From the IMG/VR virus record IMGVR_UViG_3300033141_002732: a stretch of 57,864 bases of DNA; one strand, 5' to 3'. How positions within the stretch are numbered: position 1 is the first letter of the stretch; every line of letters starts with the position of its first letter. The stretch is from a virus. Its lineage: Duplodnaviria > Heunggongvirae > Uroviricota > Caudoviricetes. This document shows positions 741 to 57,864 of the stretch, piece by piece. The position numbers and the translations under genes were made by a program. The notes under the pieces are model-generated. The model was not told where the DNA came from, made no database searches, and saw nothing but the letters and a program-made list of their open reading frames with translations.

Positions 741-757
741 TAATTAATATATATAAG
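737..757 (-). promoter_or_regulatory. Class A promoter-like motif CTTATATATATTAATTAATGA
   Basis: Identical 21-mer at 2788-2808; 20/21 match on the + strand at 5910-5930 upstream of tRNA-Trp. Confidence 0.7.
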
Positions 758-5909: not shown

Positions 5910-5930
5910 CTTATATATATTAATAAATGA
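5910..5930 (+). promoter_or_regulatory. Class A promoter-like motif upstream of tRNA-Trp
   Basis: CTTATATATATTAATAAATGA, ending 18 nt before the tRNA. Confidence 0.65.
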
Positions 5931-5948: not shown

Positions 5949-6022
5949 GGGTCGATCGGTTAGTTGGCTAAACCACTGGTCTCCAAAACCAGTTACCCTG
6001 GGTTCGAATCCTAGTCGACCCG
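5949..6022 (+). tRNA. trnW: tRNA-Trp (CCA)
   Basis: GGGTCGA/TCGACCC acceptor stem, CTGGT-CTCCAAA-ACCAG anticodon arm, TTCGAAT T-loop, G73. 3' CCA not encoded. Confidence 0.93.
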
Positions 6023-9826: not shown

Positions 9827-10189
9827 ATGTCAAAGATAATTGGTATTGTTGGAACAAGAAGTCGTGATTCTGAAGAAGACTTAAAAATAATTGAAAAGTT
9901 ATTTTTAGAACATTATAAGCCAGGTGATACTATATGTTCTGGTTTATGTCCAAAAGGTGCAGATAGATTTGCTGTAATTTTACAAAAAAAATATAAAACA
10001 AAAAAGAAATGGTTTCCTGCAAACTGGCAAAAATATGGAATAGCAGCTGGTTTTATAAGGAATACTAATATTGCAAAATTTTCTAATATTTTAATTGCTT
10101 GTGTTTCTAAAGATAGAAAAGGAGGAACAGAAGATACTATTAAAAAGTTTATGAAATTTCATGGAAAAGAGAGTCTAATAGTTTGTTAA
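9827..10189 (+). CDS. SLOG-family (DUF2493/YspA-like) protein
   Basis: IVGTRSR, SG.C.KGAD, FPANW.KYG.AAG..RN, GGT..TI motifs. Confidence 0.8.
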   Translation: MSKIIGIVGTRSRDSEEDLKIIEKLFLEHYKPGDTICSGLCPKGADRFAVILQKKYKTKKKWFPANWQKYGIAAGFIRNTNIAKFSNILIACVSKDRKGGTEDTIKKFMKFHGKESLIVC

Positions 10190-11307
10190 AAATAGCATCA
10201 GAATCTTTAGAAGTTAAAGAAGACACTTTAAATCATTTTAAATTGAAAGATCCATTTTCTCTCAATGAAGTTGAGGGATATATTTGTAGAAAATCTGATT
10301 ATAGATATGGTGCATTATTTATTTATAAAGTAAATGATTGGAAATGTAAACAAATTATATATACTACTCCAAAATTAGAATATCCATTTAATAGAAATGG
10401 AGATTTTCAATGGCCAGAAATTTATAAAATGGAAGCTTGGGAAAAATTAGATGGAACTAATATTCTTGCTTTTTGGTATAAATATAAAAATGAAAATTTC
10501 TTATCTTTTAAAACTAGAATGTCTCCTTTTCTACAAGATGGTAATTATGGAGGTTTTTTAAGTCTTTGGAAAGAATATTTTTCAAAGAATTTGTGGATTT
10601 CTGAAGTAATAATGGCAAATAAAGAATATAATCTTTCTTTTGAATTATTTGGTTCAAGAAATCCAATTACTGTAGAATATAAAATTCCTTTAGAAGTAAA
10701 TCTTCTTTTTGGAATTAGAAAACATGATCATGTAATCAAACCTCCATCAAAATTAAAAACATTTTATGAAACTAAATTACCATTTAAAATGAATATTAAT
10801 AACAAACTAGATTTAACTGAATTATATGAAAATTTAAGAAAATCAATGTCAGAAAAAAATAAAGATATATTTACTATTGAAGGTATGGTTTTGTATTCTC
10901 TTTCTAATGAAGAATCATGGAGACAATTTAAATGTAAACCTGAAGAAATTCAAAAGATTCATTGGTCTGCTGGTGGAATTCCTAAAAGGGAATTATGGAA
11001 TACAGCAATTAATTCTTTTGAAGAAGGAGAAAATTCTTTAGAACATTTTATAGATTTATTACGTGAAGAATATACAGATCAACAAATAGGAAGGTCTGAG
11101 CAGAAAATTAAAAAGATATTTTTAAAAGCAAATGAACATATTCAACTTGTATCACAAGTAAATAAAGTTTGGTTTTTGGCTAAAGAAAAAGGATTTGATA
11201 TTACTAAAAACAAAAATAATACTTTCAGATTTATTAGTCAATATTTTGACAAAAAAGAAATGAGAAGAGTAGGATCAATAATTTTAAAACAAGCAAATTT
11301 AATATAA
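10183..11307 (+). CDS. ATP-dependent RNA-ligase-like nucleotidyltransferase
   Basis: Motif I EKLDGTNI, motif III FELFG, motif IV EGMVL, motif V FKCK. Confidence 0.7.
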   Translation: MLKIASESLEVKEDTLNHFKLKDPFSLNEVEGYICRKSDYRYGALFIYKVNDWKCKQIIYTTPKLEYPFNRNGDFQWPEIYKMEAWEKLDGTNILAFWYKYKNENFLSFKTRMSPFLQDGNYGGFLSLWKEYFSKNLWISEVIMANKEYNLSFELFGSRNPITVEYKIPLEVNLLFGIRKHDHVIKPPSKLKTFYETKLPFKMNINNKLDLTELYENLRKSMSEKNKDIFTIEGMVLYSLSNEESWRQFKCKPEEIQKIHWSAGGIPKRELWNTAINSFEEGENSLEHFIDLLREEYTDQQIGRSEQKIKKIFLKANEHIQLVSQVNKVWFLAKEKGFDITKNKNNTFRFISQYFDKKEMRRVGSIILKQANLI

Positions 11308-11308
11308 A

Positions 11309-11698
11309 ATGATAAAAAAATGGAAAGATCTTATTATTGAAGTATTAGAGTTTGAAGGCGATTGTTTAAGTCTCGATTCTATTGCAAATAGAATTGTTGA
11401 TGAATATGGTAAATATGGTGTAATAAAAAATAATAAATTAAAGAAAAATATAAGAGATTGTATTAGAACTTCTTTAATTGGTTATATATGTTCTAATTCA
11501 ACTCATGGTCCTAAGATATTTTTTCAAAATAAAAACAAAACATATGGACTAGTTTGTTGGTTAAATTCAATAAATAATTTATTTAATCTAAGAGAAGGTG
11601 AAGAAATTTGTAAAAAATGTAATGGTTTGTTAGGGTGGTGTAATACTTGTTATGGAAAAGGAAGAGTTCTTTGGATCGATAATTTGATTGGAAAATAA
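11309..11698 (+). CDS. HARE-HTH-like winged helix fused to a C-terminal CxxC-(D/L)W(I)(E/D) zinc finger
   Basis: N-terminal WKDLIIEVL..LSLDSIANRI..TYGL; C-terminal CKKCNG..CNTCYGKG..WIDNLIG. Confidence 0.55.
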   Translation: MIKKWKDLIIEVLEFEGDCLSLDSIANRIVDEYGKYGVIKNNKLKKNIRDCIRTSLIGYICSNSTHGPKIFFQNKNKTYGLVCWLNSINNLFNLREGEEICKKCNGLLGWCNTCYGKGRVLWIDNLIGK

Positions 11699-11700
11699 AA

Positions 11701-11729
11701 AAAATGAGTTATTTATTACAACTCATTTT
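11701..11729. terminator. Bidirectional intrinsic terminator
   Basis: AAAATGAGTT/AACTCATTTT 10-bp stem with A/T tracts on both sides. Confidence 0.75.
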
Positions 11730-11736
11730 TTTTGTA

Positions 11737-12067
11737 CAAAAAAACCTCCAGACGAATCAGGCCTGCAGTCCCGAATCACTTGCAAGTTTTTTGACATTCC
11801 TCAACTGAATATACAACGAACTAAGTACAAGCGGCTAACTTTTCCACCGTATGTTCGCTGTTGTCAAGGAGACATGTCATGTCTGGAGGTTAAATGCTGA
11901 GTCTTCTAAAGTGCCACAACCCGACCTTAATTATATTAAGGGTGGACCAGGCAGTCCGACAACCCGAACACATTTTCTTCTGGGGTTAAAATTCAACCCG
12001 TGCCGTTAGCCGGAAAAAGAAATGATTATTTTTTACTATTCATTCCTTTGTGGTAGACAACCTCAGC
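11737..12067 (-). ncRNA. Unassigned structured ncRNA A (about 330 nt)
   Basis: G/C-enriched island downstream of a class A motif (12077-12092). 11-bp closing stem 11743-53/11881-91 followed by a U tract, nested stems with G-U pairs valid only on the - strand, three further hairpins and an 8-bp long-range pairing. Confidence 0.7.
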
Positions 12068-12076
12068 TTTTCTAAT

Positions 12077-12092
12077 TATTTATATATATAAG
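12077..12092 (-). promoter_or_regulatory. Class A promoter-like motif driving ncRNA A
   Basis: CTTATATATATAAATA on the - strand, about 10 nt upstream of the structured region. Confidence 0.6.
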
Positions 12093-12100
12093 ATTATTTT

Positions 12101-12538
12101 TTATATGTAAATAATTTGTAATAGTTTTCTTATTTTCATAATAATCTTTCCGAGATTATTTTCTCCTTTTCCATTACACATTCCCCAGAAAGTGTCACCA
12201 TGTTTATTTCCTTCTATTAATATTGCATTATTTGTATTTAAAAGTTTTATTCTTAAATTTCGATGACTTATATATTTAATCCAATTAATTATAAACATTA
12301 ATTCTTTATCATAATCAAACCAGTCATTTGGTTTAGAAGATGATTCTCTTTTCGCTTGCCATGGTTTTGGTAATGAAATAATGTAATTTCTATATTTTTC
12401 ATCATTCGATTTAAATGTATGATATGCATGTTCATTTGTTGTAAATATATATTTTCCAATTCTTATTTCAGCAAAATAAAAATTTGATAAGAAACTAAAT
12501 TCTCCAGTGAAACTATCTATAATTCTTTCCATTTTCAT
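12101..12538 (-). CDS. NADAR-family (YbiA-like) hydrolase
   Basis: FLSNFY, EHAY, LIEGN..GDTFWG, GENNLGKIIM motifs. Confidence 0.92.
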   Translation of the reverse strand: MKMERIIDSFTGEFSFLSNFYFAEIRIGKYIFTTNEHAYHTFKSNDEKYRNYIISLPKPWQAKRESSSKPNDWFDYDKELMFIINWIKYISHRNLRIKLLNTNNAILIEGNKHGDTFWGMCNGKGENNLGKIIMKIRKLLQIIYI

Positions 12539-12540
12539 TT

Positions 12541-13554
12541 TTAATGTCTTTCACTTCTTTTCTTTTCGCTTAAAGTTGTATATTCAAAATTTAAACATTT
12601 AGCCATTTTATGTGGATATTTTAAACTTGTTATTACAATACCTTCACGTAAATTTTCTGTTGTAAGTTCAGATGGTTGATCTGCTATTTCTCTTACTTGC
12701 TCAATTGATTCAAATTTTGTATAGTGGAATTTTACATGAGGTAAATCATAATTTTTGCATATTTCAACAAATTCAGAATTATGTAAATACTCACCATTTT
12801 TAGTAGCAGCAAATAATTTTATATCTGTTTCTTTTAATCCATATGAAAAATTCTTTTGAATTCCTAATCCAAAAATTTCGCCAAAGAAAACAATATCATA
12901 TGGAATTTTTGGAAGAATTTTTTCTTTTGCAATTTTCCAATAAATATTTTCTGCATTTCCTTTAAGAACTATATTATGAGATCCAACATATTCTTCTTTT
13001 TTATCTTCATGAGGATGTTGTAATATTCCAAATCTTGAATTGGTTCCATGTATTTTTTCAGACCAAATTATTTTTTCTCCTTTTTCAAATGTATATGGTT
13101 CATTTAATATATTTGGCATTTTATAAAATTTTATAAAATGAGGATTTACTGAAGATAAAGATAATGCTTCTCCTCGCATTTGAATTGTTGGTAGATCTTC
13201 CCATTTTAATATAAATGGAATATATGGTTTAACTTTTTCCATTGAAAGGATTAAACCTTCAGATCTATTTCCCCTTAATCTAGTAACTCTTACTTTACCT
13301 TTTGCTAAATATTTTGTAACTTCTACTTCTTCACTTAACTCAAAAGGGAGAACTGACTCGGGTGGAATAAATAAAACTTTGTCTCCAATTTTATGTAATC
13401 CTTTTTTTGAAATTGCACTCCAACCAATTTCTTGAAATAATATTTTTTCTAAAAAATCTGAATTTTCCGCTGGAGAAATTTCTTTAATAGTTACTTCTTT
13501 AATATATGGTGAAACTTCACAATGAGATATTTCTCGTTCATATGTTATTTTCAT
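12541..13554 (-). CDS. RNA ligase, DRB0094-like family
   Basis: N-terminal OB-like region (GDKVLFIPPES, LRGNRSEGL), EKIHGTN, FGEIFGLGIQK, REGIVI. Confidence 0.88.
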   Translation of the reverse strand: MKITYEREISHCEVSPYIKEVTIKEISPAENSDFLEKILFQEIGWSAISKKGLHKIGDKVLFIPPESVLPFELSEEVEVTKYLAKGKVRVTRLRGNRSEGLILSMEKVKPYIPFILKWEDLPTIQMRGEALSLSSVNPHFIKFYKMPNILNEPYTFEKGEKIIWSEKIHGTNSRFGILQHPHEDKKEEYVGSHNIVLKGNAENIYWKIAKEKILPKIPYDIVFFGEIFGLGIQKNFSYGLKETDIKLFAATKNGEYLHNSEFVEICKNYDLPHVKFHYTKFESIEQVREIADQPSELTTENLREGIVITSLKYPHKMAKCLNFEYTTLSEKKRSERH

Positions 13555-13563
13555 TATTTATCC

Positions 13564-13846
13564 TCAACCTTTTATAATTTTTTTTGTTGTTTTTCTAATA
13601 TGTTTTATTGTATATACACCACATGGACATTTATATCTATAATTTCGTTTTGTTTGTTCATTTGTTTTTGAATATTTTTTTAATAATTTTGGAAATATTT
13701 TTTGACAAATTTTACAATCCTGTCCAACACAAAATGGACAAAAACTTTTTTTTATTATCATTTGGCTTATTTAACCAATCTTGAATTCCATTTATATAAT
13801 TAGGATCTAATAAAATTCTTTTATAATTATTTTCTATTATTTTCAT
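13564..13846 (-). pseudogene. Cys-rich protein, paralog of 13870-14139, split by +1 A in an A8 run
   Basis: An ATG at 13846 with an AAGGA SD encodes INGIQDWLNKPNDNKK. Removing one A (13746-13753) joins it to SFCPFCVG, collinear with the paralog's ITGIQIWLKRLNKYKLRYCPF. Confidence 0.75.
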
Positions 13847-13869
13847 TTTTTATCATCCTTTCTAATTCA

Positions 13870-14139
13870 TTATATTTCTTCAATTTCTTTTATTATTTTT
13901 CTTGATTTTTTTATGATATATTTTAATGAATAAACTCCACATGGACAATCGTAATCATATTTCCTATTTGTTAGTTTTATTTTTGAATATCTTTCTTCTA
14001 AATTTGGAAATATTTCTTTGCATAAATCACATGATCGTCCAACGAGAAATGGACAATAACGAAGTTTATATTTATTTAATCTCTTTAACCATATTTGAAT
14101 ACCTGTTATTTCTGTTTGACTAAAGTTATATTTATTCAT
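13870..14139 (-). CDS. Cys-rich small protein (CPF..C..C...CPCG)
   Basis: ORF track; tandem paralog of the preceding gene. Confidence 0.65.
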   Translation of the reverse strand: MNKYNFSQTEITGIQIWLKRLNKYKLRYCPFLVGRSCDLCKEIFPNLEERYSKIKLTNRKYDYDCPCGVYSLKYIIKKSRKIIKEIEEI

Positions 14140-14155
14140 TATTTAAAACCTTTTT

Positions 14156-14437
14156 TTACGATAGTTCTTTTAATTTTTGTTTAAGATGTTTTATTTCATT
14201 TTGTTTTGTTTTTATTTTTTCTTTTAATTTATTTTTTAAGAATTTGTTTGCTTTATATCTAGTCTCAAAAATCCAACTCATTAGATATCGTTCTCTAGAA
14301 CCAAATATTGTTCTAATTACAAGTGTTGGTTCTTCATCAAAAGAAGATTGATTTTTTCTTTCTAATAGAACTCCTTCTTGTATTGTATCAGAATAATTAT
14401 CATAATAATATATTTTTTGTGCTTCTTTTAGATTCAT
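14156..14437 (-). CDS. Hypothetical protein
   Basis: ORF track; lies in the - strand operon. Confidence 0.55.
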   Translation of the reverse strand: MNLKEAQKIYYYDNYSDTIQEGVLLERKNQSSFDEEPTLVIRTIFGSRERYLMSWIFETRYKANKFLKNKLKEKIKTKQNEIKHLKQKLKELS

Positions 14438-14444
14438 TTATTTT

Positions 14445-15773
14445 CTATCCTTTTGTAGATTTTATATTTATAACTGGAATTATTTTATCTATAATTTTTG
14501 CAGTTGGTTTAATTGCTTCTTCTATAATTTTTGGATCTTTGTATGCATCTGGTGCTTCATCTAAAGTATTTTTACAAACAGAAGTTGTATATATTCCTTC
14601 CATTTGTTTTTTAAATTTTTCTAAAGATAATTTTTCTTTAGCTTTTCTTCTTGCAAGAACTCTACCTGCTCCATGAGGTGCTGAAAAATTCCAATCTGGA
14701 TTACTTCTTCCTTCACAAATTAAAATTCCATCTCTCATATTAAAAGGTATAACCATTCTAAATCCTTCAATACTTTTAATTGCACCTTTTCTTATTATTA
14801 AATCATTGAAATCTATATAATTATGAGTAGTTTCAATTATATCTTGAACTTGAATTGAGTCACTTAATATATCAAGGATTATATCAAACATTTGATTTAC
14901 ATTTTTTGATGCATAATGTTGTGCAAAAACCATATCTAAAAGATAATTACAAGCATCATTACCCTCTAAAGTTTCTAAACCAGATGATAAAGTTCCGTCA
15001 AATCCTAATTTCTTTTTTAACTCTTCAATCTTTTTTGGAATATTTTTTTTATCTTTAGTATTTGAAATGATATCTTGAATCTTATTTTGATAATCTTCTC
15101 CTCTTTTTATTTTTAAATTTTCTTTTGCTATATTCTGCCAATATCTACAAATTTTTTCTCCGAATTGTCTGGATCCAGAATGTATACTAATCCAATAATC
15201 TCCAGTATTTCGAGATTTACCTATTTCGATAAAATGGTTGCCTCCGCCTAATGTTCCTATAGAATTTATAGCTCTTTGTATATCCATATTTATTTCTTTA
15301 CATTTTCTTTCGAATTGTTGAAAATCAAATAATATTGGTTGTACATTAGTTCCAAATCTTTCATTATATTTTTTTGTTAAATTTTGTGTTGTGATAAAAG
15401 CTTTTTCCCATGGTAAATATTTTTTTAAATCATATACTGAATTTTTATGAACTGAAGTTCCAAAAGGAATATATTGTTTAATTTTCTTTTCAAGATTTTC
15501 TTTTGTTATATTAGAAAATAAATTTTTTCCAACATTTACAGATAATATTCTACAACCAATATCCACGCCTATTGTATTTGGAATTATTTTAGATGATACT
15601 TCCATTGTAAATCCAATAACACTACCTGTTCCTGCATGAGTATCTGGCATAATTCGAACTGGATTTGTAAATGCTGGATGATTGATAAATTGTATTATTT
15701 GTGAAGAACAACTTTTTTCTATTTCATTTACAAAAACTTTTGCTGTTGTATATTTTCCTTTATATTCAATCAT
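14445..15773 (-). CDS. rtcB: RtcB RNA ligase
   Basis: MPDTHAG, GVDIGC, GTLGGGNHFIE, HSGSR, HNY, RKGA, PHGAGR, DEAPDAYK motifs. Confidence 0.95.
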   Translation of the reverse strand: MIEYKGKYTTAKVFVNEIEKSCSSQIIQFINHPAFTNPVRIMPDTHAGTGSVIGFTMEVSSKIIPNTIGVDIGCRILSVNVGKNLFSNITKENLEKKIKQYIPFGTSVHKNSVYDLKKYLPWEKAFITTQNLTKKYNERFGTNVQPILFDFQQFERKCKEINMDIQRAINSIGTLGGGNHFIEIGKSRNTGDYWISIHSGSRQFGEKICRYWQNIAKENLKIKRGEDYQNKIQDIISNTKDKKNIPKKIEELKKKLGFDGTLSSGLETLEGNDACNYLLDMVFAQHYASKNVNQMFDIILDILSDSIQVQDIIETTHNYIDFNDLIIRKGAIKSIEGFRMVIPFNMRDGILICEGRSNPDWNFSAPHGAGRVLARRKAKEKLSLEKFKKQMEGIYTTSVCKNTLDEAPDAYKDPKIIEEAIKPTAKIIDKIIPVINIKSTKG

Positions 15774-15817
15774 TTTTTTTTGTACCTTTCTGTTAATTTT
15801 GGATGGAATATTGATAA

Positions 15818-15857
15818 AAAAAATAGAATGATATTTGGTAAAATCATTCTATTTTTT
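15818..15857. terminator. Intrinsic terminator-like hairpin downstream of ncRNA B
   Basis: 15-bp inverted repeat AAAAAATAGAATGAT/ATCATTCTATTTTTT. Confidence 0.7.
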
Positions 15858-15868
15858 ATTAATATATT

Positions 15869-16181
15869 AAGGATCCAAATAGCAGCCGGAAGTGTTGGTT
15901 GTGAAAGAGTTGTCACACACTTTTAATCCGGATTTTAAATCGCAGCATTCCAAGCTACTTTGACATAAGACATCATATCATGAGACATTAAGAATCCCTA
16001 TATTTTATCAGGTGGGATACCTGTAAATCATTAAAATGTTTAAACATAATGTCATGAATTGAAGTAATTTTGCTTTGGTTAAGCAAAATTTGTCTGTTTA
16101 TATTTAGCTCCATGCTAATTTCTAATATAACCCAATTAGAGAGGGACCCTATAACTCCGATATTTACACTACCGAATCCTT
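15869..16181 (-). ncRNA. Unassigned structured ncRNA B (about 313 nt) between the DIP1984-like gene and rtcB
   Basis: The ends pair (AAGGATTC-GGTAGT with GCTGCT-GGATCCTT, using G-U pairs). It has a 10-bp hairpin, nested stems and a pseudoknot candidate, a class B motif immediately upstream and a terminator downstream. Confidence 0.75.
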
Positions 16182-16189
16182 ATTTTAAG

Positions 16190-16204
16190 TTTATTATTTG
16201 TTCT
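16190..16204 (-). promoter_or_regulatory. Class B motif AGAACAAATAATAAA embedded in the last codons of the DIP1984-like gene
   Basis: Identical 15-mer to 29717-29731; ends 8 nt before ncRNA B. Confidence 0.6.
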
Positions 16205-16775
16205 GTAGTTCTTCTAAATATGGTTGTTTTTTCTTTTCTTTTTCAATAAAATCAAGAATTGGATGTTCTTCAATTAAATCTGTAATTGCATTTGTAGTTT
16301 GTAATCTTGGACTGAGAGAAGTATAAAAAATATCTAGTTTATTAATATTTCTTTGTTTTTCTTCTTCGTCAAAAAACCATATAACTTGTGGTCTTTTCTC
16401 CCCACTTGAAACTGGATAACGTTGTAATTTTTGTTCACCATGCTTTCTGTTAAGAGCATTACTTGCTTCTTTAATTGGATTTCCTGGGTATCTTTGTATT
16501 ATTAATATTTCTGTTAGAGATAAACGTTTTTCTCCAACGGAAATTATTGTTAAGAGATTTGTAAGTTCAATTCTTACTTTTAACCATATGTATCGTTCCA
16601 TAAGGTCCCCAACAGATTGGACCATACTTTTGACTTCTTTTCTCTGTTGTTTCTCATCTCCATATGGATATCTTTCATTGTCTAATGCAGAACTGTTGTC
16701 TTGAATTTGTTGTATTTTCCGTGTAATTCTTTTTCTTAAATTCTCATACTCATGTAGTGCATCAACTAATTTCAT
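16194..16775 (-). CDS. DIP1984-like coiled-coil protein
   Basis: MKLVDAL...LRKRI, LKVRIELTN, LSLTEIL and the C-terminal LQTTNA pattern resemble the DIP1984 family. Confidence 0.6.
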   Translation of the reverse strand: MKLVDALHEYENLRKRITRKIQQIQDNSSALDNERYPYGDEKQQRKEVKSMVQSVGDLMERYIWLKVRIELTNLLTIISVGEKRLSLTEILIIQRYPGNPIKEASNALNRKHGEQKLQRYPVSSGEKRPQVIWFFDEEEKQRNINKLDIFYTSLSPRLQTTNAITDLIEEHPILDFIEKEKKKQPYLEELQNK

Positions 16776-16884: not shown

Positions 16885-17066
16885 GGTTATGTAATAAATA
16901 CAGTGGATAGAGCTAATGGTAATACACAACGAAATTACAAACTAAAGATTATTAAATACATAAATTTATATATATAAGTTATTTTTTTTAACCAGAAATA
17001 ATTTTGAGAAATTATATTTTTTTATATGAACAAAATAACAAATATAGAAATATTGTGGAGTAATTT

Positions 17067-20629: not shown

Positions 20630-20756
20630 TTTTCCTCCTTATTTTTTATAAAAGATATTTAACAATTATTTATATATATAATTATTTTCTTAATAAAATA
20701 TTTAGAAATATTTTTTTATTGGAAGAACAAAAAATTAAAAAGGAGTAGTTAAAGAC

Positions 20757-41903: not shown

Positions 41904-43589
41904 ATGGAATATAAATTAGATGATAATGAAATTAAAAGACTTTATTTAGAAGAAAAATGGACAATATTAGATATATCGAATTATTTTAAAGTAAATCATG
42001 GAACTATAAGATTAAGACTAAAAAGATCTAACACGCCTTTACGAAGTCATTCACAAAATCAAAAATTAGTTATGAATAGAAAAGAAGTAAAAGAGAAAAC
42101 TACAAAAACATCTATTAAATCTAATAATAAAAGAATTAAAACAAATATTCAAAAATATGGAACAGAAGTTCCTTCTAATAATAAAGAAATAAAAAAGAAA
42201 TGGTTAAAAGAACATAAAGAAAAACATGGAGTTTTATGGCCAAATCAGAGACAAGAAGTTCGAGATAAATATGTAAATACTTGTAATAATAAATATTCTG
42301 TTTCAAATGTTTCTAAAGTTAGCGAAGTTCAAGAAAAAATTTCTGATAATAGATGGAAAAATAAAACTGAAGAAGAGTTACAAGAAATTTCTAATAAAAG
42401 AAAAGAAACTCTTATTAATAATTTTGGTGTTGATAATCCATTAAAAAATAATAATATAAAGAAAAAAGTTAAAGAAAATAGATGGTTAAATAAAACAAAA
42501 GAAGAGTTAGAAGAAATAAAGGAGAAGGCACAAAAAACAAGAATTAAAAATAGATTACCTGAAATAGAAAGAAATCTTAAATTACTAAATTTGGAATTAG
42601 TTGATAATTTTAATAATGTAACTGATTTTATGAATATAAAATGTACAAAATGTAATACAAAATTTAAGACGGTATTAGATTATATATTTAATGGTTATGG
42701 ATTATGTCCTAAATGTTTTCCGAGAAGCATATCTTCTTATGAATCTGAAATACAAAATTTTATTTTAACATTACCTAATATAGATATAGATACAAATAAT
42801 AGAACTTTTTTAAGTAATAATAAAGAAATTGATATACTAATTAGAAATAAAAAAATTGCTATAGAATTTGATGGACTTTACTATCATTCAGATAAGTTTA
42901 TGATTGACAAAAATTACCACTTAGATAAAATGATAGAATGTGAAAAATTAGGATATATGTTAATACATATTTTTGAAGATGAATGGATTTATAAAAAAGA
43001 AATTGTAAAATCAAGAATTAAACAAATAATGTCTATTTCTGATTCTATAAAAATATATGCTAGAAATTGTTATATAAAAGAAATTAGTAATAAAGAAAAA
43101 AATAACTTTCTAGATAAATATCATATACAAGGAATAGATATATCAAAAATATCATTAGGAGCATTTTATAATAATCAATTAGTTTCAGTTATGACTTTTT
43201 CTCGTGGAAATATTGCTAAAGGAAGTAAATCAGAAGAAGGTGTTTGGGAATTAAATAGATTTTGTTCAGATTATCAATATCATGTTATTGGAATTGCAAG
43301 TAAATTACTAACTTATTTTAAAAGAAATTATCAATGGAAAAAAATCTTTTCCTATGCTGACCGAAGATGGAGTGATGGTAATTTATATAAAAAATTGGGT
43401 TTTAAATTGGAAAAAGTAACTGATCCAAATTATTGGTATGTAAAAGGGTTAAAGAGACTTCATAGATTTAGTTTGAGAAAGAAACTAAATGAACCAAAAG
43501 ATATTCCAGAATGGATCTTAAGACAAAAAGATGGTTATTTTAGAGTTTGGGATTGTGGTAATATAAAATTTATACTAAATAATACTTAA
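41904..43589 (+). CDS. Putative homing endonuclease (KYG repeats, PD-(D/E)xK/Vsr-like domain, C-terminal GNAT/Mom-like domain)
   Basis: EIDI..KIAIEFDGLYYHS, HIFEDEW, WELNRFC, SYADRRWSDG.LY..LGF, RVWDCG motifs. Confidence 0.7.
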   Translation: MEYKLDDNEIKRLYLEEKWTILDISNYFKVNHGTIRLRLKRSNTPLRSHSQNQKLVMNRKEVKEKTTKTSIKSNNKRIKTNIQKYGTEVPSNNKEIKKKWLKEHKEKHGVLWPNQRQEVRDKYVNTCNNKYSVSNVSKVSEVQEKISDNRWKNKTEEELQEISNKRKETLINNFGVDNPLKNNNIKKKVKENRWLNKTKEELEEIKEKAQKTRIKNRLPEIERNLKLLNLELVDNFNNVTDFMNIKCTKCNTKFKTVLDYIFNGYGLCPKCFPRSISSYESEIQNFILTLPNIDIDTNNRTFLSNNKEIDILIRNKKIAIEFDGLYYHSDKFMIDKNYHLDKMIECEKLGYMLIHIFEDEWIYKKEIVKSRIKQIMSISDSIKIYARNCYIKEISNKEKNNFLDKYHIQGIDISKISLGAFYNNQLVSVMTFSRGNIAKGSKSEEGVWELNRFCSDYQYHVIGIASKLLTYFKRNYQWKKIFSYADRRWSDGNLYKKLGFKLEKVTDPNYWYVKGLKRLHRFSLRKKLNEPKDIPEWILRQKDGYFRVWDCGNIKFILNNT

Positions 43590-43732: not shown

Positions 43733-45193
43733 ATGAAGGAAATTCTTACTGAGGTTTACAGGACAACCAAAAAGATTTCTGGCGTTGATCCTGGCAAGCC
43801 CGGGAATATTCGACAGATTTTAGTTGATGATGATGCTTGGAGTGTTTATGTTAATGGACTAGCTGAGTCTCTGGAGGATAAGAAAGACAAAACTAATTTT
43901 ATTCGATTGGCTGAAAATACCAGAATTGGATTACTTGAAAATTCAATGTTTCAAATTAATCCTTATGAGACACTTACTTTACCCATTCTAAGAGTGTTTT
44001 ATCCTAAACTGGTTGCTAAGGAAGCAATTACTATTTCTCCAATGGATAAACCAGAATGTGTTAAGTCTTTCTTAACTGCTACGTTTACTCCATCTGCTAG
44101 TACCACTCAATATAATGCTCCTTCTGTTACAAACGATATTTCCGGTGGTCCAAGTATTGGAACTCCTGTTGCTGCTACTATGTCAGTTCCAAGTGTTAAT
44201 TTTAATGTTCTTGGATTAATTACTGGAACTACTGTTACCAGTACTCAAGCACATCTTGAAAGAGATTTCGAGATTACCAGTGTTTCTAGTGATGGAACTA
44301 GTTATACTAATGTTTCTATTGTTCCTGCTGTGGAAGGTCATTTTTCTGCTAGTGTGACAATTGGTGGAGCCACTGATGTTATTTCTGGTCAGGTTGACTA
44401 TTTAAACGGAACTGTCAGTGTTTCTAGTGCTACTGGAGTTTGTGCTTTTGTTAGATTCACCGTTACTTGTTCTCTTGAAGAGAATAGAATTAACCCAAGT
44501 GTTACTTTTGATTTTGATAAAGTAAGACTATATGCTAGAGACAGACAAATCTCTGCAAACTGGACCATCAATATGGAACAGGATGTTAGAGCTCTGTTTG
44601 ATCTTTCTATGCAGGCTGAAATTGTCAATATTCTTGGACAACAGATTGCTCTGGATATTGACAGAGAAATAATTAATGCTTTAATTACCGCAAATACTAG
44701 GTTAAATGCTGCTAATCATACTAACACTTTTAACAGGACTCCGCCTGCTGCTTATACTTGGGGAACTAAATATTGGCATGAAAATATTATTCCTGTGATG
44801 AACGTTCTGTCTGCAAGAATTTATAATGATACTAATATGGATGCTGGAAATACTATTCTGGCTAACCCTGTTGATGTTGCTATTCTTGAAGACATTCAAA
44901 CCTTTAATTATACTGGAACTTCTTCTGTTGACGGTGATGTTGGTTATAGATCAGCTACTGTTGCTGGTGGAAAGTGGAGAGTTCTAACAAGTGCTGTTGT
45001 GACTCAAGGAACTATGGTTATGGTTTATAAGCCAGTAGAAGAACTCAAAGCTGTTTATATTTATTCACCTTATATCCCAGCAGTTCTTCATCCATACCCC
45101 CTCGGAGCCACTCCAAGTTTAACCATTCTATCTCGTTATGCTACTGCATTAATTAGAAGTAATGGTATAGCAACTCTGACAATTGGCGCGTAG
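43733..45193 (+). CDS. T4 gp23-like major capsid protein
   Basis: RQISANWTINMEQD, IALDIDREII and YSPYIP motifs; follows protease and portal; codon usage typical of high expression. Confidence 0.92.
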   Translation: MKEILTEVYRTTKKISGVDPGKPGNIRQILVDDDAWSVYVNGLAESLEDKKDKTNFIRLAENTRIGLLENSMFQINPYETLTLPILRVFYPKLVAKEAITISPMDKPECVKSFLTATFTPSASTTQYNAPSVTNDISGGPSIGTPVAATMSVPSVNFNVLGLITGTTVTSTQAHLERDFEITSVSSDGTSYTNVSIVPAVEGHFSASVTIGGATDVISGQVDYLNGTVSVSSATGVCAFVRFTVTCSLEENRINPSVTFDFDKVRLYARDRQISANWTINMEQDVRALFDLSMQAEIVNILGQQIALDIDREIINALITANTRLNAANHTNTFNRTPPAAYTWGTKYWHENIIPVMNVLSARIYNDTNMDAGNTILANPVDVAILEDIQTFNYTGTSSVDGDVGYRSATVAGGKWRVLTSAVVTQGTMVMVYKPVEELKAVYIYSPYIPAVLHPYPLGATPSLTILSRYATALIRSNGIATLTIGA

Positions 45194-45323: not shown

Positions 45324-46997
45324 TTGATGAAATGTATGATTTGTAATAAAGATTTTAAATCTCTTACTAATCATTTGAAATATCATAAAATATCTCAAAA
45401 AGAATATTATGATAAATATTTAATACAAAATGAAAACGAAAAAATTTGCATAATGTATACAAAAAATTCAAGTTGTAAAAAATATTCTAAATTTTTAAAT
45501 ATTCAAAATGGATATTCCAAATATTGTAGTAGTTGTTTAATATCTATAGCAGTTGAAAAAAGAAAAAGAACTATGTTAGAAAAATATGGAGTAGAAAATA
45601 TTAGCCAATTAAAGAAAATAAAAGAAAAAAGAAAAAATACTTTTTTAGAAAAATATGGTGTTGAAAATGCTAGTCAAATAGAAGAAGTAAAAAAGAAAAA
45701 AATCCAAACAAGTCAATTACATTATGATACAGATTATCCATTACAAAATAAAGAAATAATAGAAAAGATTAAAAAAACAAATATAGAAAAATATGGTTGT
45801 GAATGTTCTTTACAGAATGAAAAAATAAAAAAGAAAGTAATACAAACAAATATAGAAAAAACTGGATTTAAACATCAAATGAAATCCGAGCAATCAAAAA
45901 AGAAATTAAAGAATACAATATCAAAAAAACGAGATCCTATTATAAGAGAAATTCTACTTAAAAATTTAGATTTAGAATTACTAACTCCATATCAAAATAA
46001 TGTTAATGAAATAAAAGTTCGTTGTAACAAATGTGGACAAATATATTTAACTAATTATTTTAACTTATATCAATGTCCACATCCATGTATTTCTTGTTAT
46101 CCAAGATCTTCTGGTTTTTCTAAACAAGAAAAGGAGATTTTATCCTTTATAGAAAATATTCTTCCAAATGAAAAAATATTTCAAAACTATAGAAATTTAA
46201 AAAATAGATCAACAAACACTCCTTTTGAATTAGATATTTTTATTCCAACTAAAAAGATTGCTATTGAATATAATGGATTATATTGGCATAGTGAAAAATA
46301 TAAACCAAAAAATTATCACTTAGAAAAATTAGAAGAATGTGAAAAAAATAATATCAGATGTATTCAAATATTTGAAGATGAATGGTTATTTAAACAAGAT
46401 ATCGTAAAAGCTAGATTAAAACATATTTTAAATCAAACAAAAGAATTAGAAAAGTTATATGCAAAAGATTGTATTATCAGAGAAATAATTCCAAAAGAAA
46501 AAGATGAATTTTTAAAGAAATATCATATACAAGGAAGCGATAAATCGATTGTAAAATTAGGAGCTTTTTATGATAACGAATTAGTTTCAGTTATGACTTT
46601 TTCTCATGGAAACATTTCAAAGGGATCTAAATCAAAAAAAGATGTTTGGGAATTAAATAGATTTTGTACTAATTATAACTTTATTATAGTTGGAATTGCT
46701 GGAAAATTATTAAATTATTTTAAAAGAAATTATCAATGGAAAGAAATTTTTTCTTATGCAGATCGAAGATGGAGTGATGGTAATTTATATAGAAAATTGA
46801 GTTTTTCTTTATTTTCTACAACAAAACCAAATTATTGGTATATTAAAGGTTTTCAAAGAATACATAGATTTAATTTAAGAAAACAAAAAAATGAAGGAAA
46901 TAATATTTCAGAGTGGGTATTAAGGCAGAAAGAAGGTTATGAGAGAGTTTGGGATTGTGGTAGTTTAAAATATATTTTAAAAAATAAGGAAATTTAA
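45324..46997 (+). CDS. Putative homing endonuclease (same family as 41904)
   Basis: N-terminal Zn finger, KYGVEN repeats, ELDIFIP..AIEYNGLYWHS, SYADRRWSDG. Confidence 0.7.
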   Translation: MMKCMICNKDFKSLTNHLKYHKISQKEYYDKYLIQNENEKICIMYTKNSSCKKYSKFLNIQNGYSKYCSSCLISIAVEKRKRTMLEKYGVENISQLKKIKEKRKNTFLEKYGVENASQIEEVKKKKIQTSQLHYDTDYPLQNKEIIEKIKKTNIEKYGCECSLQNEKIKKKVIQTNIEKTGFKHQMKSEQSKKKLKNTISKKRDPIIREILLKNLDLELLTPYQNNVNEIKVRCNKCGQIYLTNYFNLYQCPHPCISCYPRSSGFSKQEKEILSFIENILPNEKIFQNYRNLKNRSTNTPFELDIFIPTKKIAIEYNGLYWHSEKYKPKNYHLEKLEECEKNNIRCIQIFEDEWLFKQDIVKARLKHILNQTKELEKLYAKDCIIREIIPKEKDEFLKKYHIQGSDKSIVKLGAFYDNELVSVMTFSHGNISKGSKSKKDVWELNRFCTNYNFIIVGIAGKLLNYFKRNYQWKEIFSYADRRWSDGNLYRKLSFSLFSTTKPNYWYIKGFQRIHRFNLRKQKNEGNNISEWVLRQKEGYERVWDCGSLKYILKNKEI

Positions 46998-46999
46998 TT

Positions 47000-49096
47000 A
47001 TGAATTTAATAATGAAAAAACATATAATATCAAAGGAAGATTTTATTATATGTCAAATTTGTAAACAACAATTAAATAAAATAGATGGAAGACATTTAAA
47101 AAAACACAATTTATCTTTTGATAACTATTTAAAAATGTTTCCTAATACATTCACAATAACAGAAAAACAATATCAAAAAGAAATTGATTCACAAGAGAAA
47201 AGAAAAATAAGTAAACTTAAAAAATCTACAAAAGTTATTAAATGTTATTATTGTAAAATTGATTTTGAAGGAGATATTAATTTATCAAATAATTTTTCAG
47301 TTTGTAAAAATTGTAAAAAAATAGGACTTAAAAATCCAAAGAGAAAAGAAATATATGAAATACAGAAAAAAAGTTTACTAGAAAAATATGGAGTAGATAA
47401 CCCAAGTAAAATTAATTCAGTAGTTGAAAAAAGAAATCAAACTATTAAAAGAAAGCAGAAAGAGGATATAAATTATTTTAAAAATATTGAAGAAAAAAGA
47501 ATAAAAACTATGATTGATAAATATGGAGAAAATTATCAAGAAATATTAACTAAAAAGAAACAAGAAGGAATGTTAGAAAAATATGGGGTAAAACATGCTC
47601 TTCAAAAAGAAGAATTTATTAATAAAATGAAGAAAACTACATTAGAACGTTATGGTAAAGAAAATGCAGTACAAAATGAAGAAGTTAAAGAAAAACAAAA
47701 ACAAACAATGTTAAATCGTTATGGAAAAGGAAATGCTATGCAAATTGAAGAATTTCAAGAGAAAGTAAAAAATACAAATCAAGATAGATATAATGTAGAT
47801 TATCCATTACAAAGTAAGAAAATTAAAGAAACAAGAAAAAAAAATAATTTAGAGAAATATGGAGTAGAAGAAACTATATATTTGCAATCTGTAAAAGAAA
47901 AAATTAAAAAAACAAATTTAGAAAAATATGGAACTGAATATCCTTTCCAATCAAAGATAGTTCATAAAACTATAAAAAGAAATAATTTAGAAAAATATGG
48001 AGTTGAATGTACATCAAAATTATCTGAAGTAAGCGAAAAAGTTAAAAAGAAACTTAGAGAAAAATTCCTCCCTCTTCTTAAAAAACAAATGGAGTATTTA
48101 GATGTAAAACTTATTGATAAAAATTATGAACATTCTCATTTTAAACATAATTGGAAATGTTTAAAATGTGATCATGAATTTCAACAACTTTGGAATTCTA
48201 TTCAACAAGGATATCTCTGTCCAAAATGTTTTCCAAGAAATCAAGGATTTTCAAGAGGTGAAAAAGAAGTTGCTGAATTCATAAAGTCATTAGGTTTTGA
48301 TATTATTGAGAATTCTAGATCTATAATTCCTCCATTTGAATTAGATATTTTTATTCCAACTAAAAAGATTGCTATTGAATTTAATGGACTTTATTGGCAT
48401 TCCGAAGAATTTAGTAATCCAAAAAGTCATATAAATAAAACAAAACTATGTATGAAACAAGAAATTAGATTGATCCAAATATTTGAAGATGAATGGGTTC
48501 TTAAACAGGATATTGTTAAAAATAGATTAAAACATATATTAGAAGTTTCAGAAGCAGAAACTATATATGCAAGAAATTGTATTATTAAAGAAATTTCTCC
48601 GTTAGAAAAAAATAATTTTTTAGATGAATATCATGTACAAGGAAAAGACATATCTTCTATAAAAATTGGAGCTTTTTATAATGATAAATTAGTTTCAGTA
48701 ATGACTTTTTCAAAAGGTAATAGAGCTAAAGGTTCAAAATATATTGAAGGTCATTGGGAATTAAATAGATTTTGTAGTAATTATAATTATAGAGCTATTG
48801 GAATTGCTGGTAAAATGTTATCCTATTTTAAAGAGAACTATATTTGGAAAAATATATATTCATATTGTGATCTTAGATGGTCTGATGGAAATTTATATAA
48901 AAAACTTGGATTTATTACTGATAATATAATTAGACTTAATTATTGGTATTTAAAAGATGGAATTAGACAACATAGATTTGCTTTTAGAAAAAGACCAAAT
49001 GAACCAAAAGATATTCCAGAATATATTTTAAGGTTAAAAGAAGGATATATTAGAATTTGGGATTGTGGAAATCTTAAATATATATTAACAATATAA
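47000..49096 (+). CDS. Putative homing endonuclease (same family, longest repeat array)
   Basis: About eight K/RYG repeats, ELDIFIP..AIEFNGLYWHS, SYCDLRWSDG. Confidence 0.7.
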   Translation: MNLIMKKHIISKEDFIICQICKQQLNKIDGRHLKKHNLSFDNYLKMFPNTFTITEKQYQKEIDSQEKRKISKLKKSTKVIKCYYCKIDFEGDINLSNNFSVCKNCKKIGLKNPKRKEIYEIQKKSLLEKYGVDNPSKINSVVEKRNQTIKRKQKEDINYFKNIEEKRIKTMIDKYGENYQEILTKKKQEGMLEKYGVKHALQKEEFINKMKKTTLERYGKENAVQNEEVKEKQKQTMLNRYGKGNAMQIEEFQEKVKNTNQDRYNVDYPLQSKKIKETRKKNNLEKYGVEETIYLQSVKEKIKKTNLEKYGTEYPFQSKIVHKTIKRNNLEKYGVECTSKLSEVSEKVKKKLREKFLPLLKKQMEYLDVKLIDKNYEHSHFKHNWKCLKCDHEFQQLWNSIQQGYLCPKCFPRNQGFSRGEKEVAEFIKSLGFDIIENSRSIIPPFELDIFIPTKKIAIEFNGLYWHSEEFSNPKSHINKTKLCMKQEIRLIQIFEDEWVLKQDIVKNRLKHILEVSEAETIYARNCIIKEISPLEKNNFLDEYHVQGKDISSIKIGAFYNDKLVSVMTFSKGNRAKGSKYIEGHWELNRFCSNYNYRAIGIAGKMLSYFKENYIWKNIYSYCDLRWSDGNLYKKLGFITDNIIRLNYWYLKDGIRQHRFAFRKRPNEPKDIPEYILRLKEGYIRIWDCGNLKYILTI

Positions 49097-57569: not shown

Positions 57570-57635
57570 ATTTAAAAAATAATTATATAAAAAGGATTTT
57601 AAATAATTTGAAATATATAGGAGTTCTCTTTAAAA

Positions 57636-57864
57636 ATGGCAGATCCAAAAATTAATTTGTTGGGTGCAACTATTCTTCAACAGAAGAATGTTTTACCTGC
57701 TTGGACAGCTGACGATCTTGCCAGATTCTTATATAATGCTGCAGATAAGAGATTATATTATGGAGATATTACACAATATAATGCTCTAGCAAAATTAAGT
57801 GATATTACTACAGGAACAAGTGGTTCATCTGGTTCTAGCGGAACAAGTGGAACTTCTGGTAGTT
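57636..57864 (+). CDS. Partial tail-fibre-like protein with GTSGSSG repeats (runs off the right edge)
   Basis: My translation: MADPKINLLGATILQQKNVLPAWTADDLARFLYNAADKRLYYG...TGTSGSSGSSGTSGTSGS. Confidence 0.6.
   Translation, partial: MADPKINLLGATILQQKNVLPAWTADDLARFLYNAADKRLYYGDITQYNALAKLSDITTGTSGSSGSSGTSGTSGS

What the first reader, a model, noticed from the sequence alone, without database searches (positions are those of the whole stretch)
11737..12092. ncRNA A: about 330-nt two-domain RNA with repeated CGGGTTG motifs
It is a G/C-enriched island read on the - strand from a class A motif and ending in a U tract next to a bidirectional terminator. The 3' domain is closed by a perfect 11-bp helix (11743-53/11881-91) and has nested TTGACA/TGTCAA and 9-bp ACAGCGAAC/GTTCGTTGT helices; the G-U pair there fixes the strand. 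The 5' domain is closed by GCTGAG/CTCAGC (12062-67/11896-901) and holds three hairpins. An 8-bp pairing (12005-12/11832-39) links the two domains. CGGGTTG occurs three times (+ strand CAACCCG at 11918, 11960, 11994), which suggests protein-binding or sponge sites, or a repeat-based decoy (inference).
Basis: partly seen in the sequence, partly recalled or inferred. Interest (0 to 1): 0.82.

Follow-up and report, generated by a model that had tools for sequence, protein, structure and literature searches.

The report
Orphan structured RNA in phage RNA-repair island
An uncultured, very AT-rich jumbo phage most likely carries a gene for a folded RNA of about 334 nt, with no known relatives and a function still to be shown, next to its RNA-repair enzymes.

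Summary
Window 11738-12071 is the only long, protein-free, GC-enriched stretch of the window apart from the tRNA genes (42-47% GC against 25%). All six frames are closed.

The minus strand folds far better than shuffled sequence (-109 kcal/mol, z -4.7). The plus strand does less well (-86 kcal/mol, z -2.8). CGGGTTG does occur three times within 84 nt.

A 15-nt promoter-like motif, CTTATATATATWAAT, ends 10 nt upstream of the first helix and points into it. It has 6 copies in the window against 0.43 expected, and another copy precedes tRNA-Trp. The RNA ends in a U run followed by a perfect bidirectional terminator.

No family claims it. Rfam 15 at E<=10 and ARAGORN find nothing, and it resembles neither the tmRNA of a related phage nor the neighbouring "ncRNA B".

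I found no homologue anywhere, so there is no covariation. No sequencing run was listed, so expression is untested.

Best reading (about 0.6): a real, separately transcribed structured RNA of an uncatalogued class. A role as a protein-binding scaffold or decoy for the RNA-repair cassette is inference only.

I could not test any link to it.

The parts
12078..12092 (-). Promoter-like 'class A' motif CTTATATATATAAAT. It contains TATAAATA and ends 10 nt upstream of the first helix.
   Evidence: CTTATATATATWAAT has 6 matches in the window against 0.43 expected, and 0 of 100 shuffles reach 6. I read all six copies as lying upstream of, and pointing toward, an ORF, tRNA-Trp (5910-5924, tRNA at 5949) or this RNA. 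Promoter function is inferred.
11738..12071 (-). Predicted RNA A transcript, about 334 nt. The 5' end is inferred from the motif and the 3' end from the U run.
   Evidence: GC 0.42 against 0.25. No ORF on the minus strand, and TAA stops in all six frames. MFE -109 kcal/mol, z -4.71, with 0 of 100 shuffles as stable. It has the most negative z of the 7 non-coding gaps tested.
11896..12067 (-). 5' domain: a multibranch closed by GCUGAG/CUCAGC, UCUA/UAGA and CCACA/UGUGG, with three hairpins (apical stems 12017-12048, 11983-11999, 11925-11941).
   Evidence: Helix list and pair probabilities of 0.66-0.97. The minus-strand domain folds at -54.6 kcal/mol against -43.2 for the plus strand.
11917..12000 (-). 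Three CGGGUUG copies (11994-12000, 11960-11966, 11917-11923). Copies 2 and 3 extend to UCGGGUUGUSGSACU.
   Evidence: D2, D4.
11743..11891 (-). 3' domain: a perfect 11-bp closing helix around a long irregular hairpin (6+8+9+4+4 bp) and two small 3' hairpins.
   Evidence: I12. One search gives probabilities of 0.97 for the closing helix and 0.99 for the 9-bp helix. The domain folds at -54.4 kcal/mol on the minus strand against -43.2 on the plus strand.
11738..11744 (-). U7 run directly after the closing helix and a small hairpin. Likely first termination point.
   Evidence: Terminator-like site reported on the minus strand at 11765-11749 followed by GAGGTTTTTT. Sequence read.
11697..11733 (.). 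Bidirectional intrinsic terminator: a perfect 14-bp stem flanked by A8 and T8. It ends the plus-strand gene 11309-11698 and backs up termination of RNA A.
   Evidence: I4.

Best explanation
Window about 12071 to 11738 on the minus strand is a separate gene for a stable, highly structured non-coding RNA of about 334 nt. It belongs to no catalogued family.

It is transcribed from a phage promoter of the CTTATATATATWAAT class, the same class that precedes tRNA-Trp. It is terminated at a U run and then at a bidirectional terminator.

It folds into two independently closed domains. It sits at the end of a minus-strand RNA-repair cassette: a DIP1984-like gene, 'ncRNA B', RtcB, small zinc-ribbon proteins, a PF09414 RNA ligase and NADAR.

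Shown here: its composition, the absence of coding potential, strand-specific thermodynamic stability, the promoter-like motif and the terminators.

Inferred, at about 0.2-0.3 on its own: the RNA works as a protein-binding scaffold or decoy for the cassette or for a host RNA-targeting factor. In this reading the repeated UCGGGUUGU elements act as recognition sites, in the way Y RNAs serve Ro60 in rsr-rtcB operons.
For: The GC island is 42-47% against 25%, a property otherwise shared in this window's intergenic DNA only by tRNA genes.

There is no ORF of 30 aa or more on the minus strand, every frame has TAA stops, and JGI gene calling left the interval empty.

Minus strand: MFE -109 kcal/mol, z -4.71. 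Plus strand: -86.4 kcal/mol, z -2.83. Both domains are about 11 kcal/mol better on the minus strand, and the fold has 13 G-U pairs. Most helices have pair probabilities of 0.7-0.99. It is the strongest fold outlier among 7 non-coding gaps.

The promoter-like motif is enriched 14-fold, also precedes a tRNA, and here is oriented toward the RNA with no minus-strand ORF downstream. A U run and a perfect bidirectional terminator lie at the 3' end.

The context is RtcB, RNA ligase and NADAR. [quoted passage not shown]
Against: No homologue was found, so there is no covariation. Single-sequence covariance models of both domains matched only the window itself in 34 loci, in 5 RtcB-relative phage records and in 30 capsid-relative records, two of them complete genomes.

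Syntenic neighbourhoods in relatives have no such gap. Expression is untested.

The hairpin loops show no hallmark tetraloops. The three CGGGUUG copies are partly buried in helices in the predicted fold. Thermodynamic z-scores alone can mislead when local GC is atypical.
Confidence: 0.6

Rival explanations
1. It is not a separate gene but the structured 3' end of the minus-strand operon (RtcB ... RNA ligase, NADAR). It would be a 3' UTR that blocks exonucleases and terminates transcription, perhaps released as a 3'-UTR-derived RNA.
For: It starts 30 nt after the NADAR stop (12101) on the same strand and ends in terminators. Its first hairpin (12048-12017) is a 72% copy of the terminator at 11697-11732 and is followed by U-rich sequence (D1).
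Against: A full copy of the over-represented promoter-like motif lies between the NADAR stop and the first helix. About 330 nt of GC-rich multibranch structure is far more than a terminator or stabiliser needs. No other operon end in the window has one.
Confidence: 0.14
2. It is a non-functional remnant: a decayed GC-richer gene, a decayed tRNA or tmRNA cluster, or a piece of foreign DNA captured with the accessory cassette.
For: It is an orphan with no homologue. The whole cassette is accessory: the RNA ligase occurs in 3 of 30 capsid relatives and the 374-aa ligase-like gene in 2 of 30. A phage with a related RtcB gene (50% identity) carries tRNAs and a true tmRNA downstream of its RtcB.
Against: There is no residual similarity to tRNA, tmRNA or any Rfam family at E<=10, and none to that relative's tmRNA. 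No frame has protein homologues. Decay would not be expected to leave perfect 11-bp and 9-bp long-range helices, a z of -4.7 and an intact promoter motif. In a 25% GC genome, neutral sequence should drift toward AT.
Confidence: 0.12
3. It is a very divergent member of a known RNA family (tmRNA, RNase P RNA, 6S, Y RNA, ROOL/GOLLD) beyond the reach of the Rfam models.
For: The size class of about 330 nt matches tmRNA and RNase P RNA. A phage with a related RtcB gene has a tmRNA. Very AT-rich genomes often have aberrant RNAs.
Against: There was no hit even at E<=10 with relaxed filters on the 346-nt stretch alone. ARAGORN finds nothing. There is no acceptor-like pairing of the ends, no CCA-like end and no tag reading frame.
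Confidence: 0.05
4. It acts as DNA: a protein-binding, replication, packaging or recombination site rich in inverted repeats.
For: It holds several perfect palindromes or inverted repeats. It lies at the junction where gene orientation flips.
Against: Stability is strand-asymmetric, with 13 G-U pairs that would be A-C mismatches on the other strand. The promoter motif and terminators frame it as a transcription unit.
Confidence: 0.05
5. The plus-strand ORF 11688-11900 (70 aa) or 11851-12009 (52 aa) encodes a small protein.
For: The frames are open.
Against: The 70-aa ORF starts with TTG inside the preceding gene's end and runs through the bidirectional terminator. There are no Pfam hits. Among 1.84 billion representative proteins the only hit is a summed weak match to nine identical repeats of a 1898-aa protein. 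JGI gene calling did not call the ORF on the full contig.
Confidence: 0.02

Closest known systems
Y RNAs (YrlA/YrlB) of the rsr-yrlBA-rtcBA RNA-repair operon of Salmonella and relatives (PMC7790460, found; further details are from my own knowledge)
   Same: Non-coding RNAs embedded in an RtcB RNA-repair gene cluster. Here too there may be two RNAs (A and 'B') in one cassette. Their presumed logic is an RNA that tethers or gates a protein.
   Different: Y RNAs are about 100-120 nt, have a Ro-binding stem and often a tRNA-like module, and accompany a Ro60/Rsr gene. RNA A is about 334 nt with two domains and no Rfam Y RNA hit. No TROVE/Ro60 protein was seen among the 20 neighbouring or large ORFs scanned.
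Phage-encoded tmRNA, as in IMG/VR contig 3300033149_002200, a phage from the same sample series with a related RtcB gene (L014)
   Same: A stable RNA of about 350 nt lying downstream of RtcB in an AT-rich phage.
   Different: L014's RNA scores 127.7 bits against RF00023 and is called by ARAGORN with a tag peptide. RNA A scores nothing, has no tRNA-like end pairing and no tag frame, and shows no sequence similarity to it.
Large ornate phage-associated RNAs ROOL (RF03087) and GOLLD (RF01998)
   Same: Large, GC-enriched, multibranched RNAs of unknown function carried by phages, often near tRNA genes.
   Different: Those are about 500-800 nt and are recognised by Rfam models. RNA A is about 334 nt and gives no match.
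Phage T4 stable RNAs rnaC (species 1) and rnaD (species 2) (my own knowledge)
   Same: Stable structured RNAs of unknown function in a phage with a T4-type capsid, using the same kind of transcription signals as its tRNAs.
   Different: The T4 RNAs are 120-140 nt and are processed out of the tRNA cluster transcript. There is no sequence similarity to any GenBank phage.
Protein-sponge RNAs with repeated short motifs (CsrB/RsmZ type) (my own knowledge)
   Same: A short motif is repeated several times in one structured RNA.
   Different: There are only three copies, they are not presented in equivalent hairpin loops, and the motif is not GGA. By my own reading GGA is not enriched; I ran no tool on this.

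Membership tests
tmRNA (RF00023; permuted form RF04321) | tRNA-like domain: the 5' and 3' ends pair into an acceptor stem, with a T-arm and a 3' CCA | tested here: not met
   ARAGORN finds no tmRNA in the window. The ends of RNA A close two separate domains and do not pair with each other.
tmRNA (RF00023; permuted form RF04321) | Match to the covariance model, and a tag reading frame ending in a stop | tested here: not met
   No hit at E<=10, while the positive control L014 scores 127.7 bits. No plausible tag frame.
Y RNA / YrlA (RF00019, RF02553) | Ro-binding stem formed by the 5' and 3' ends, size of about 100 nt, and a match to the model | tested here: not met
   No Rfam hit. RNA A is about 334 nt with no end-to-end stem.
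Y RNA / YrlA (RF00019, RF02553) | Neighbouring Ro60/Rsr (TROVE) gene | tested here: inconclusive
   No TROVE hit among the 20 proteins scanned, but not every ORF of the window or genome was scanned.
ROOL / GOLLD ornate RNAs | Match to RF03087 or RF01998; length of about 500-800 nt | tested here: not met
   No hit at the gathering threshold or at E<=10. Length is about 334 nt.
RNase P RNA, 6S RNA, SRP RNA, group I/II introns, small ribozymes | Match to the respective Rfam covariance models | tested here: not met
   cmscan of 346 nt with relaxed filters returned only a chance miRNA-like match on the other strand.
Type III toxin-antitoxin antitoxin RNA (ToxI-like) | Near-perfect tandem repeats of about 34-36 nt followed by an endoribonuclease toxin gene | tested here: not met
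   Only a 7-15 nt core recurs, at spacings of 34 and 43 nt. No gene follows on the same strand.
Uncatalogued ~320-nt phage RNA family noted earlier in this scan (e1-3507239) | End-to-end closing helix, position between RNA ligase and RtcB genes, frequent small zinc-ribbon partner | not testable with these tools
   No sequence of that family was available to me. RNA A lacks an end-to-end helix. The neighbouring 'ncRNA B' fits that description better. Small CxxC proteins lie at 13564-13761 and 13870-14139.

The most novel reading that the evidence does not exclude
RNA A is the founding member of a new class of phage RNAs dedicated to an RNA-repair or counter-defence cassette. One option is a Ro-independent analogue of Y RNAs that recruits or gates RtcB and the ligases. 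Another is a decoy substrate that soaks up a host RNA-cleaving or RNA-modifying defence enzyme through its three UCGGGUUGU elements, with the adjacent ligases and NADAR resetting it.
Probability: 0.15. Interest if true: 0.8.

Novelty: new variant of a known kind. Interest (0 to 1): 0.45.

Why it matters
Phage RNA-repair modules (RtcB, RNA ligases, NADAR) are thought to undo damage that host defences inflict on tRNAs and other RNAs. Their RNA partners are known only for Ro60/Y RNA systems.

A promoter-to-terminator gene for a large folded RNA inside such a cassette, with no Ro60 gene found nearby, would point to a second RNA-guided or RNA-buffered way of running RNA repair. It would also add a new class to the short list of large structured phage RNAs.

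At present it is a single-genome candidate from an uncultured phage. Its value is as a lead, and it can be tested with a synthetic RNA and recombinant cassette proteins.

Tried and rejected
- **Rfam and ARAGORN.** Rfam at the gathering threshold and at E<=10, once on 801 nt and once on 346 nt, gave nothing credible. ARAGORN gave only the three tRNAs.
- **Sequence searches.** blastn against 50,697 GenBank phages found no match. An exact 31-mer in IMG/VR found none. nhmmer over all fetched loci matched only the same phage.
- **Relatives through flanking proteins.** I tried NADAR, the RNA ligase, the 374-aa ligase-like protein and RtcB. The nearest homologues are 45-63% identical and their neighbourhoods lack the RNA.
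- **Strain variants.** Copies from JGI samples 3300033148, 3300033149 and 3300033153 are identical apart from one C-to-A near a contig end, so they carry no covariation signal.
- **Motif pattern scans.** The IMG/VR scans returned only tandem repeats or nothing at all. The metagenome scan and the GTDB genome scan returned only tandem repeats. That was a poorly chosen pattern on my part, and the result is no evidence of absence.
- **Covariance models.** Models R1 and R2 found no hits in 34 loci, 5 records and 30 records.
- **Promoter-guided search.** The motif is not conserved in capsid relatives.
- **Sequencing runs.** None was listed and no RNA holder was listed.
- **Own contig and genome.** The whole genome is not held, and the window's own contig could not be searched.
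- **Similarity to other RNAs.** There is none to ncRNA B or to L014's tmRNA.
- **Intermolecular pairing.** duplexfold against the phage tRNAs, against ncRNA B and between the two domains was not above shuffles.
- **TATAAATA alone.** Its count is at the chance level. Only the longer 15-mer is enriched.
- **Cassette synteny with L014.** The small ORFs are unrelated.
- **Considered and rejected.** A retron msr-msd was rejected because I saw no reverse-transcriptase gene beside it or among the ORFs I scanned. A CRISPR array or type III antitoxin was rejected because the repeats are too short and too few. A riboswitch or leader was rejected because no gene follows on the same strand.
- **Unreliable number.** The mirrored-structure energy on the plus strand counts non-standard pairs, so I did not use it.

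Full report
**1. What is there.**
The window is 25% GC. It comes from an uncultured jumbo phage with a T4-type capsid. Its major capsid protein (43733-45193) is 63-78% identical to proteins on IMG/VR contigs of up to 312 kb, but only about 25% identical to any cultured phage.

The interval between the end of the plus-strand gene 11309-11698 and the end of the minus-strand NADAR gene 12101-12538 is 402 nt. In it, 150-nt windows reach 0.42-0.45 GC and 100-nt windows reach 0.47. Among 17 non-coding gaps of 120 nt or more, only this one and the tRNA-Leu gap reach 0.37 GC overall.

The minus strand has no ORF of 30 aa or more. Every one of the six frames has at least two TAA stops, so no stop-codon reassignment opens a frame. 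JGI's gene calls on the same contig leave the interval empty.

**2. Fold and strand.**
The minus strand folds to -109 kcal/mol. Shuffles give -85.1 +/- 5.1, which is z -4.71, and 0 of 100 shuffles do as well. The plus strand folds to -86.4 kcal/mol, z -2.83. Each domain alone is about 11 kcal/mol more stable on the minus strand, and the minus-strand fold contains 13 G-U pairs.

The fold has two closed domains:
- The 5' domain (12067-11896) is closed by GCUGAG/CUCAGC, UCUA/UAGA and CCACA/UGUGG. It carries three hairpins.
- The 3' domain (11891-11743) is closed by a perfect 11-bp helix. It encloses a long irregular hairpin and two small hairpins.
- Most helices have pair probabilities of 0.7-0.99.

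In a within-window control of seven non-coding gaps, RNA A is the strongest outlier. 'ncRNA B' (15869-16181) is weaker at z -3.2, also on the minus strand.

The 8-nt inter-domain complement exists but is not above chance.

**3. Repeated motif.**
CGGGTTG occurs at 11917-23, 11960-66 and 11994-12000 on the minus strand. The whole window has 5 copies against 0.29 expected; the other two form a terminator stem at 1861/1890. Copies 2 and 3 share 13 of 15 positions of UCGGGUUGUSGSACU (D4).

In the predicted fold the three copies pair with three different partners. The repetition is therefore not explained by a duplicated hairpin. Equally, the copies are not displayed as equivalent loops.

**4. Transcription signals.**
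The 15-mer CTTATATATATWAAT occurs 6 times with at most one mismatch, against 0.43 expected, and 0 of 100 shuffles reach 6. By my reading of the contexts, all six copies lie upstream of a feature and point toward it. One is 25 nt upstream of tRNA-Trp (5910-5924, tRNA at 5949). One is at 16964-16978, ahead of the DIP1984-like gene. One is at 12092-12078, ending 10 nt before GCUGAG.

I found this motif independently.

The copy at RNA A has no minus-strand ORF downstream for 9.4 kb. Its 3' part is TATAAATA, but that 8-mer by itself is at chance frequency.

At the 3' end, the closing helix is followed by a U7 run (11744-11738). Next comes a perfect 14-bp hairpin flanked by A8 and T8 (11697-11733), which can terminate both strands.

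Together these frame a unit of about 334 nt. The exact ends are inferred.

**5. Context.**
Upstream on the same strand lie:
- NADAR (PF08719, E 1.5e-19);
- an RNA ligase (PF09414, E 3.2e-16);
- two small CxxC proteins;
- RtcB (PF01139, E 8e-57);
- the 'ncRNA B' gap;
- a DIP1984-like protein.

On the other side lie a SLOG-like protein, a 374-aa ligase-like protein and a 129-aa protein.

This cassette is accessory. Among 30 capsid relatives, the RNA ligase is found in 3, at 34-42% identity, and the 374-aa protein in 2.

**6. Known families.**
Nothing in Rfam 15 matches, even at E<=10 on the 346-nt stretch alone. ARAGORN finds only the three tRNAs.

A phage from the same sample series whose RtcB is 50% identical (L014) does carry tRNAs and a bona fide tmRNA just downstream of its RtcB (127.7 bits). 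That made a degenerate tmRNA worth testing. RNA A has no similarity to that tmRNA, no acceptor-type end pairing and no tag frame. RNA A and ncRNA B are unrelated in sequence.

**7. Search for relatives.**
All routes failed:
- blastn against GenBank phages;
- nhmmer over 300 fetched loci;
- neighbourhoods of the closest homologues of all four flanking proteins;
- single-sequence covariance models of each domain over 34 loci, over 5 RtcB-relative records including 640-675 kb phages, and over 30 capsid-relative records, two of them complete.

Pattern scans on the repeated motif returned only tandem repeats or nothing. The one metagenome scan was swamped by them and is uninformative.

Copies from three JGI samples are identical except for one change near a contig end. 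So there is no covariation evidence either way. Single-sequence models are also weak at finding distant relatives.

**8. Coding rival.**
In an exhaustive search of 1.84 billion representative proteins it has only one artefactual hit, a weak 36-residue match summed over nine identical repeats. It also starts with TTG inside the preceding gene's end and runs through the terminator hairpin.

**9. Interpretation.**
The evidence fits a discrete, structured, minus-strand RNA gene of an uncatalogued class. I put this at about 0.6.

Function is not shown. The most economical mechanism, given the position and the precedent of Y RNAs in rsr-rtcB operons (PMC7790460), is an RNA that binds a protein of the cassette or a host RNA-targeting factor. 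This is inference, and I give it about 0.2-0.3.

The rivals are:
- a structured operon 3' end (0.14);
- a non-functional remnant (0.12);
- a very divergent known family (0.05);
- a DNA-level site (0.05);
- a small protein (0.02).

That description fits ncRNA B better than RNA A. I could not test either.

**10. Verdict.**
This is a credible but unvalidated orphan ncRNA. Interest is moderate.

Noticed in passing
L014:7426-8154 (IMG/VR 3300033149_002200): A phage with a related RtcB gene (50% identity) carries tRNA-Gly, tRNA-Met and a bona fide tmRNA (127.7 bits, tag ADDYYTELALAA) directly downstream of its RtcB gene.
   Followed up: partly
window 743-757, 2794-2808, 5910-5924, 12078-12092, 16964-16978, 20668-20682: The promoter-like 15-mer CTTATATATATWAAT has 6 copies against 0.43 expected. 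By my reading all lie upstream of, and point toward, a gene, a tRNA or RNA A. It is not conserved in capsid relatives.
   Followed up: partly
window 15869-16181 (- strand): The 'ncRNA B' gap between the DIP1984-like gene and RtcB folds with z -3.2 on the minus strand against -1.0 on the plus strand, at GC 0.34. It is unrelated in sequence to RNA A. It fits the description of the RNA family in earlier finding e1-3507239 better than RNA A does.
   Followed up: partly
window 12017-12048 vs 11697-11732: The AU-rich first hairpin of RNA A is a 72% direct-repeat copy of the bidirectional terminator 317 nt away (D1). This suggests a terminator hairpin was duplicated or co-opted.
   Followed up: no
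window 13564-13761 and 13870-14139 (- strand): Two paralogous small CxxC...CPCG zinc-ribbon-like proteins (65 and 89 aa) lie between the RNA ligase and RtcB. The 89-aa protein has no match in GenBank phages; the 65-aa one was not searched.
   Followed up: partly
window 41904-43589, 45324-46997, 47000-49096: Three large paralogues (557-698 aa) matching PHROG 3339/559 ('homing/HNH endonuclease') flank the major capsid gene 43733-45193.
   Followed up: no
window 9827-16775: The RNA-repair cassette is accessory. Among 30 phages with 63-78% identical capsid proteins, the PF09414 ligase occurs in 3 and the 374-aa ligase-like protein in 2.
   Followed up: yes
window 57570-57864: A non-coding stretch at the window's end (GC 0.31) folds with z -3.5 on the minus strand. 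It is cut by the window edge.
   Followed up: no
L009:3590 region (JGI 3300033153): The single difference among environmental copies is C to A in the CUCAGC strand of the 5'-domain closing helix, 15 nt from a contig end. Two contigs of that sample also break inside the RNA. This may be an assembly artefact.
   Followed up: no
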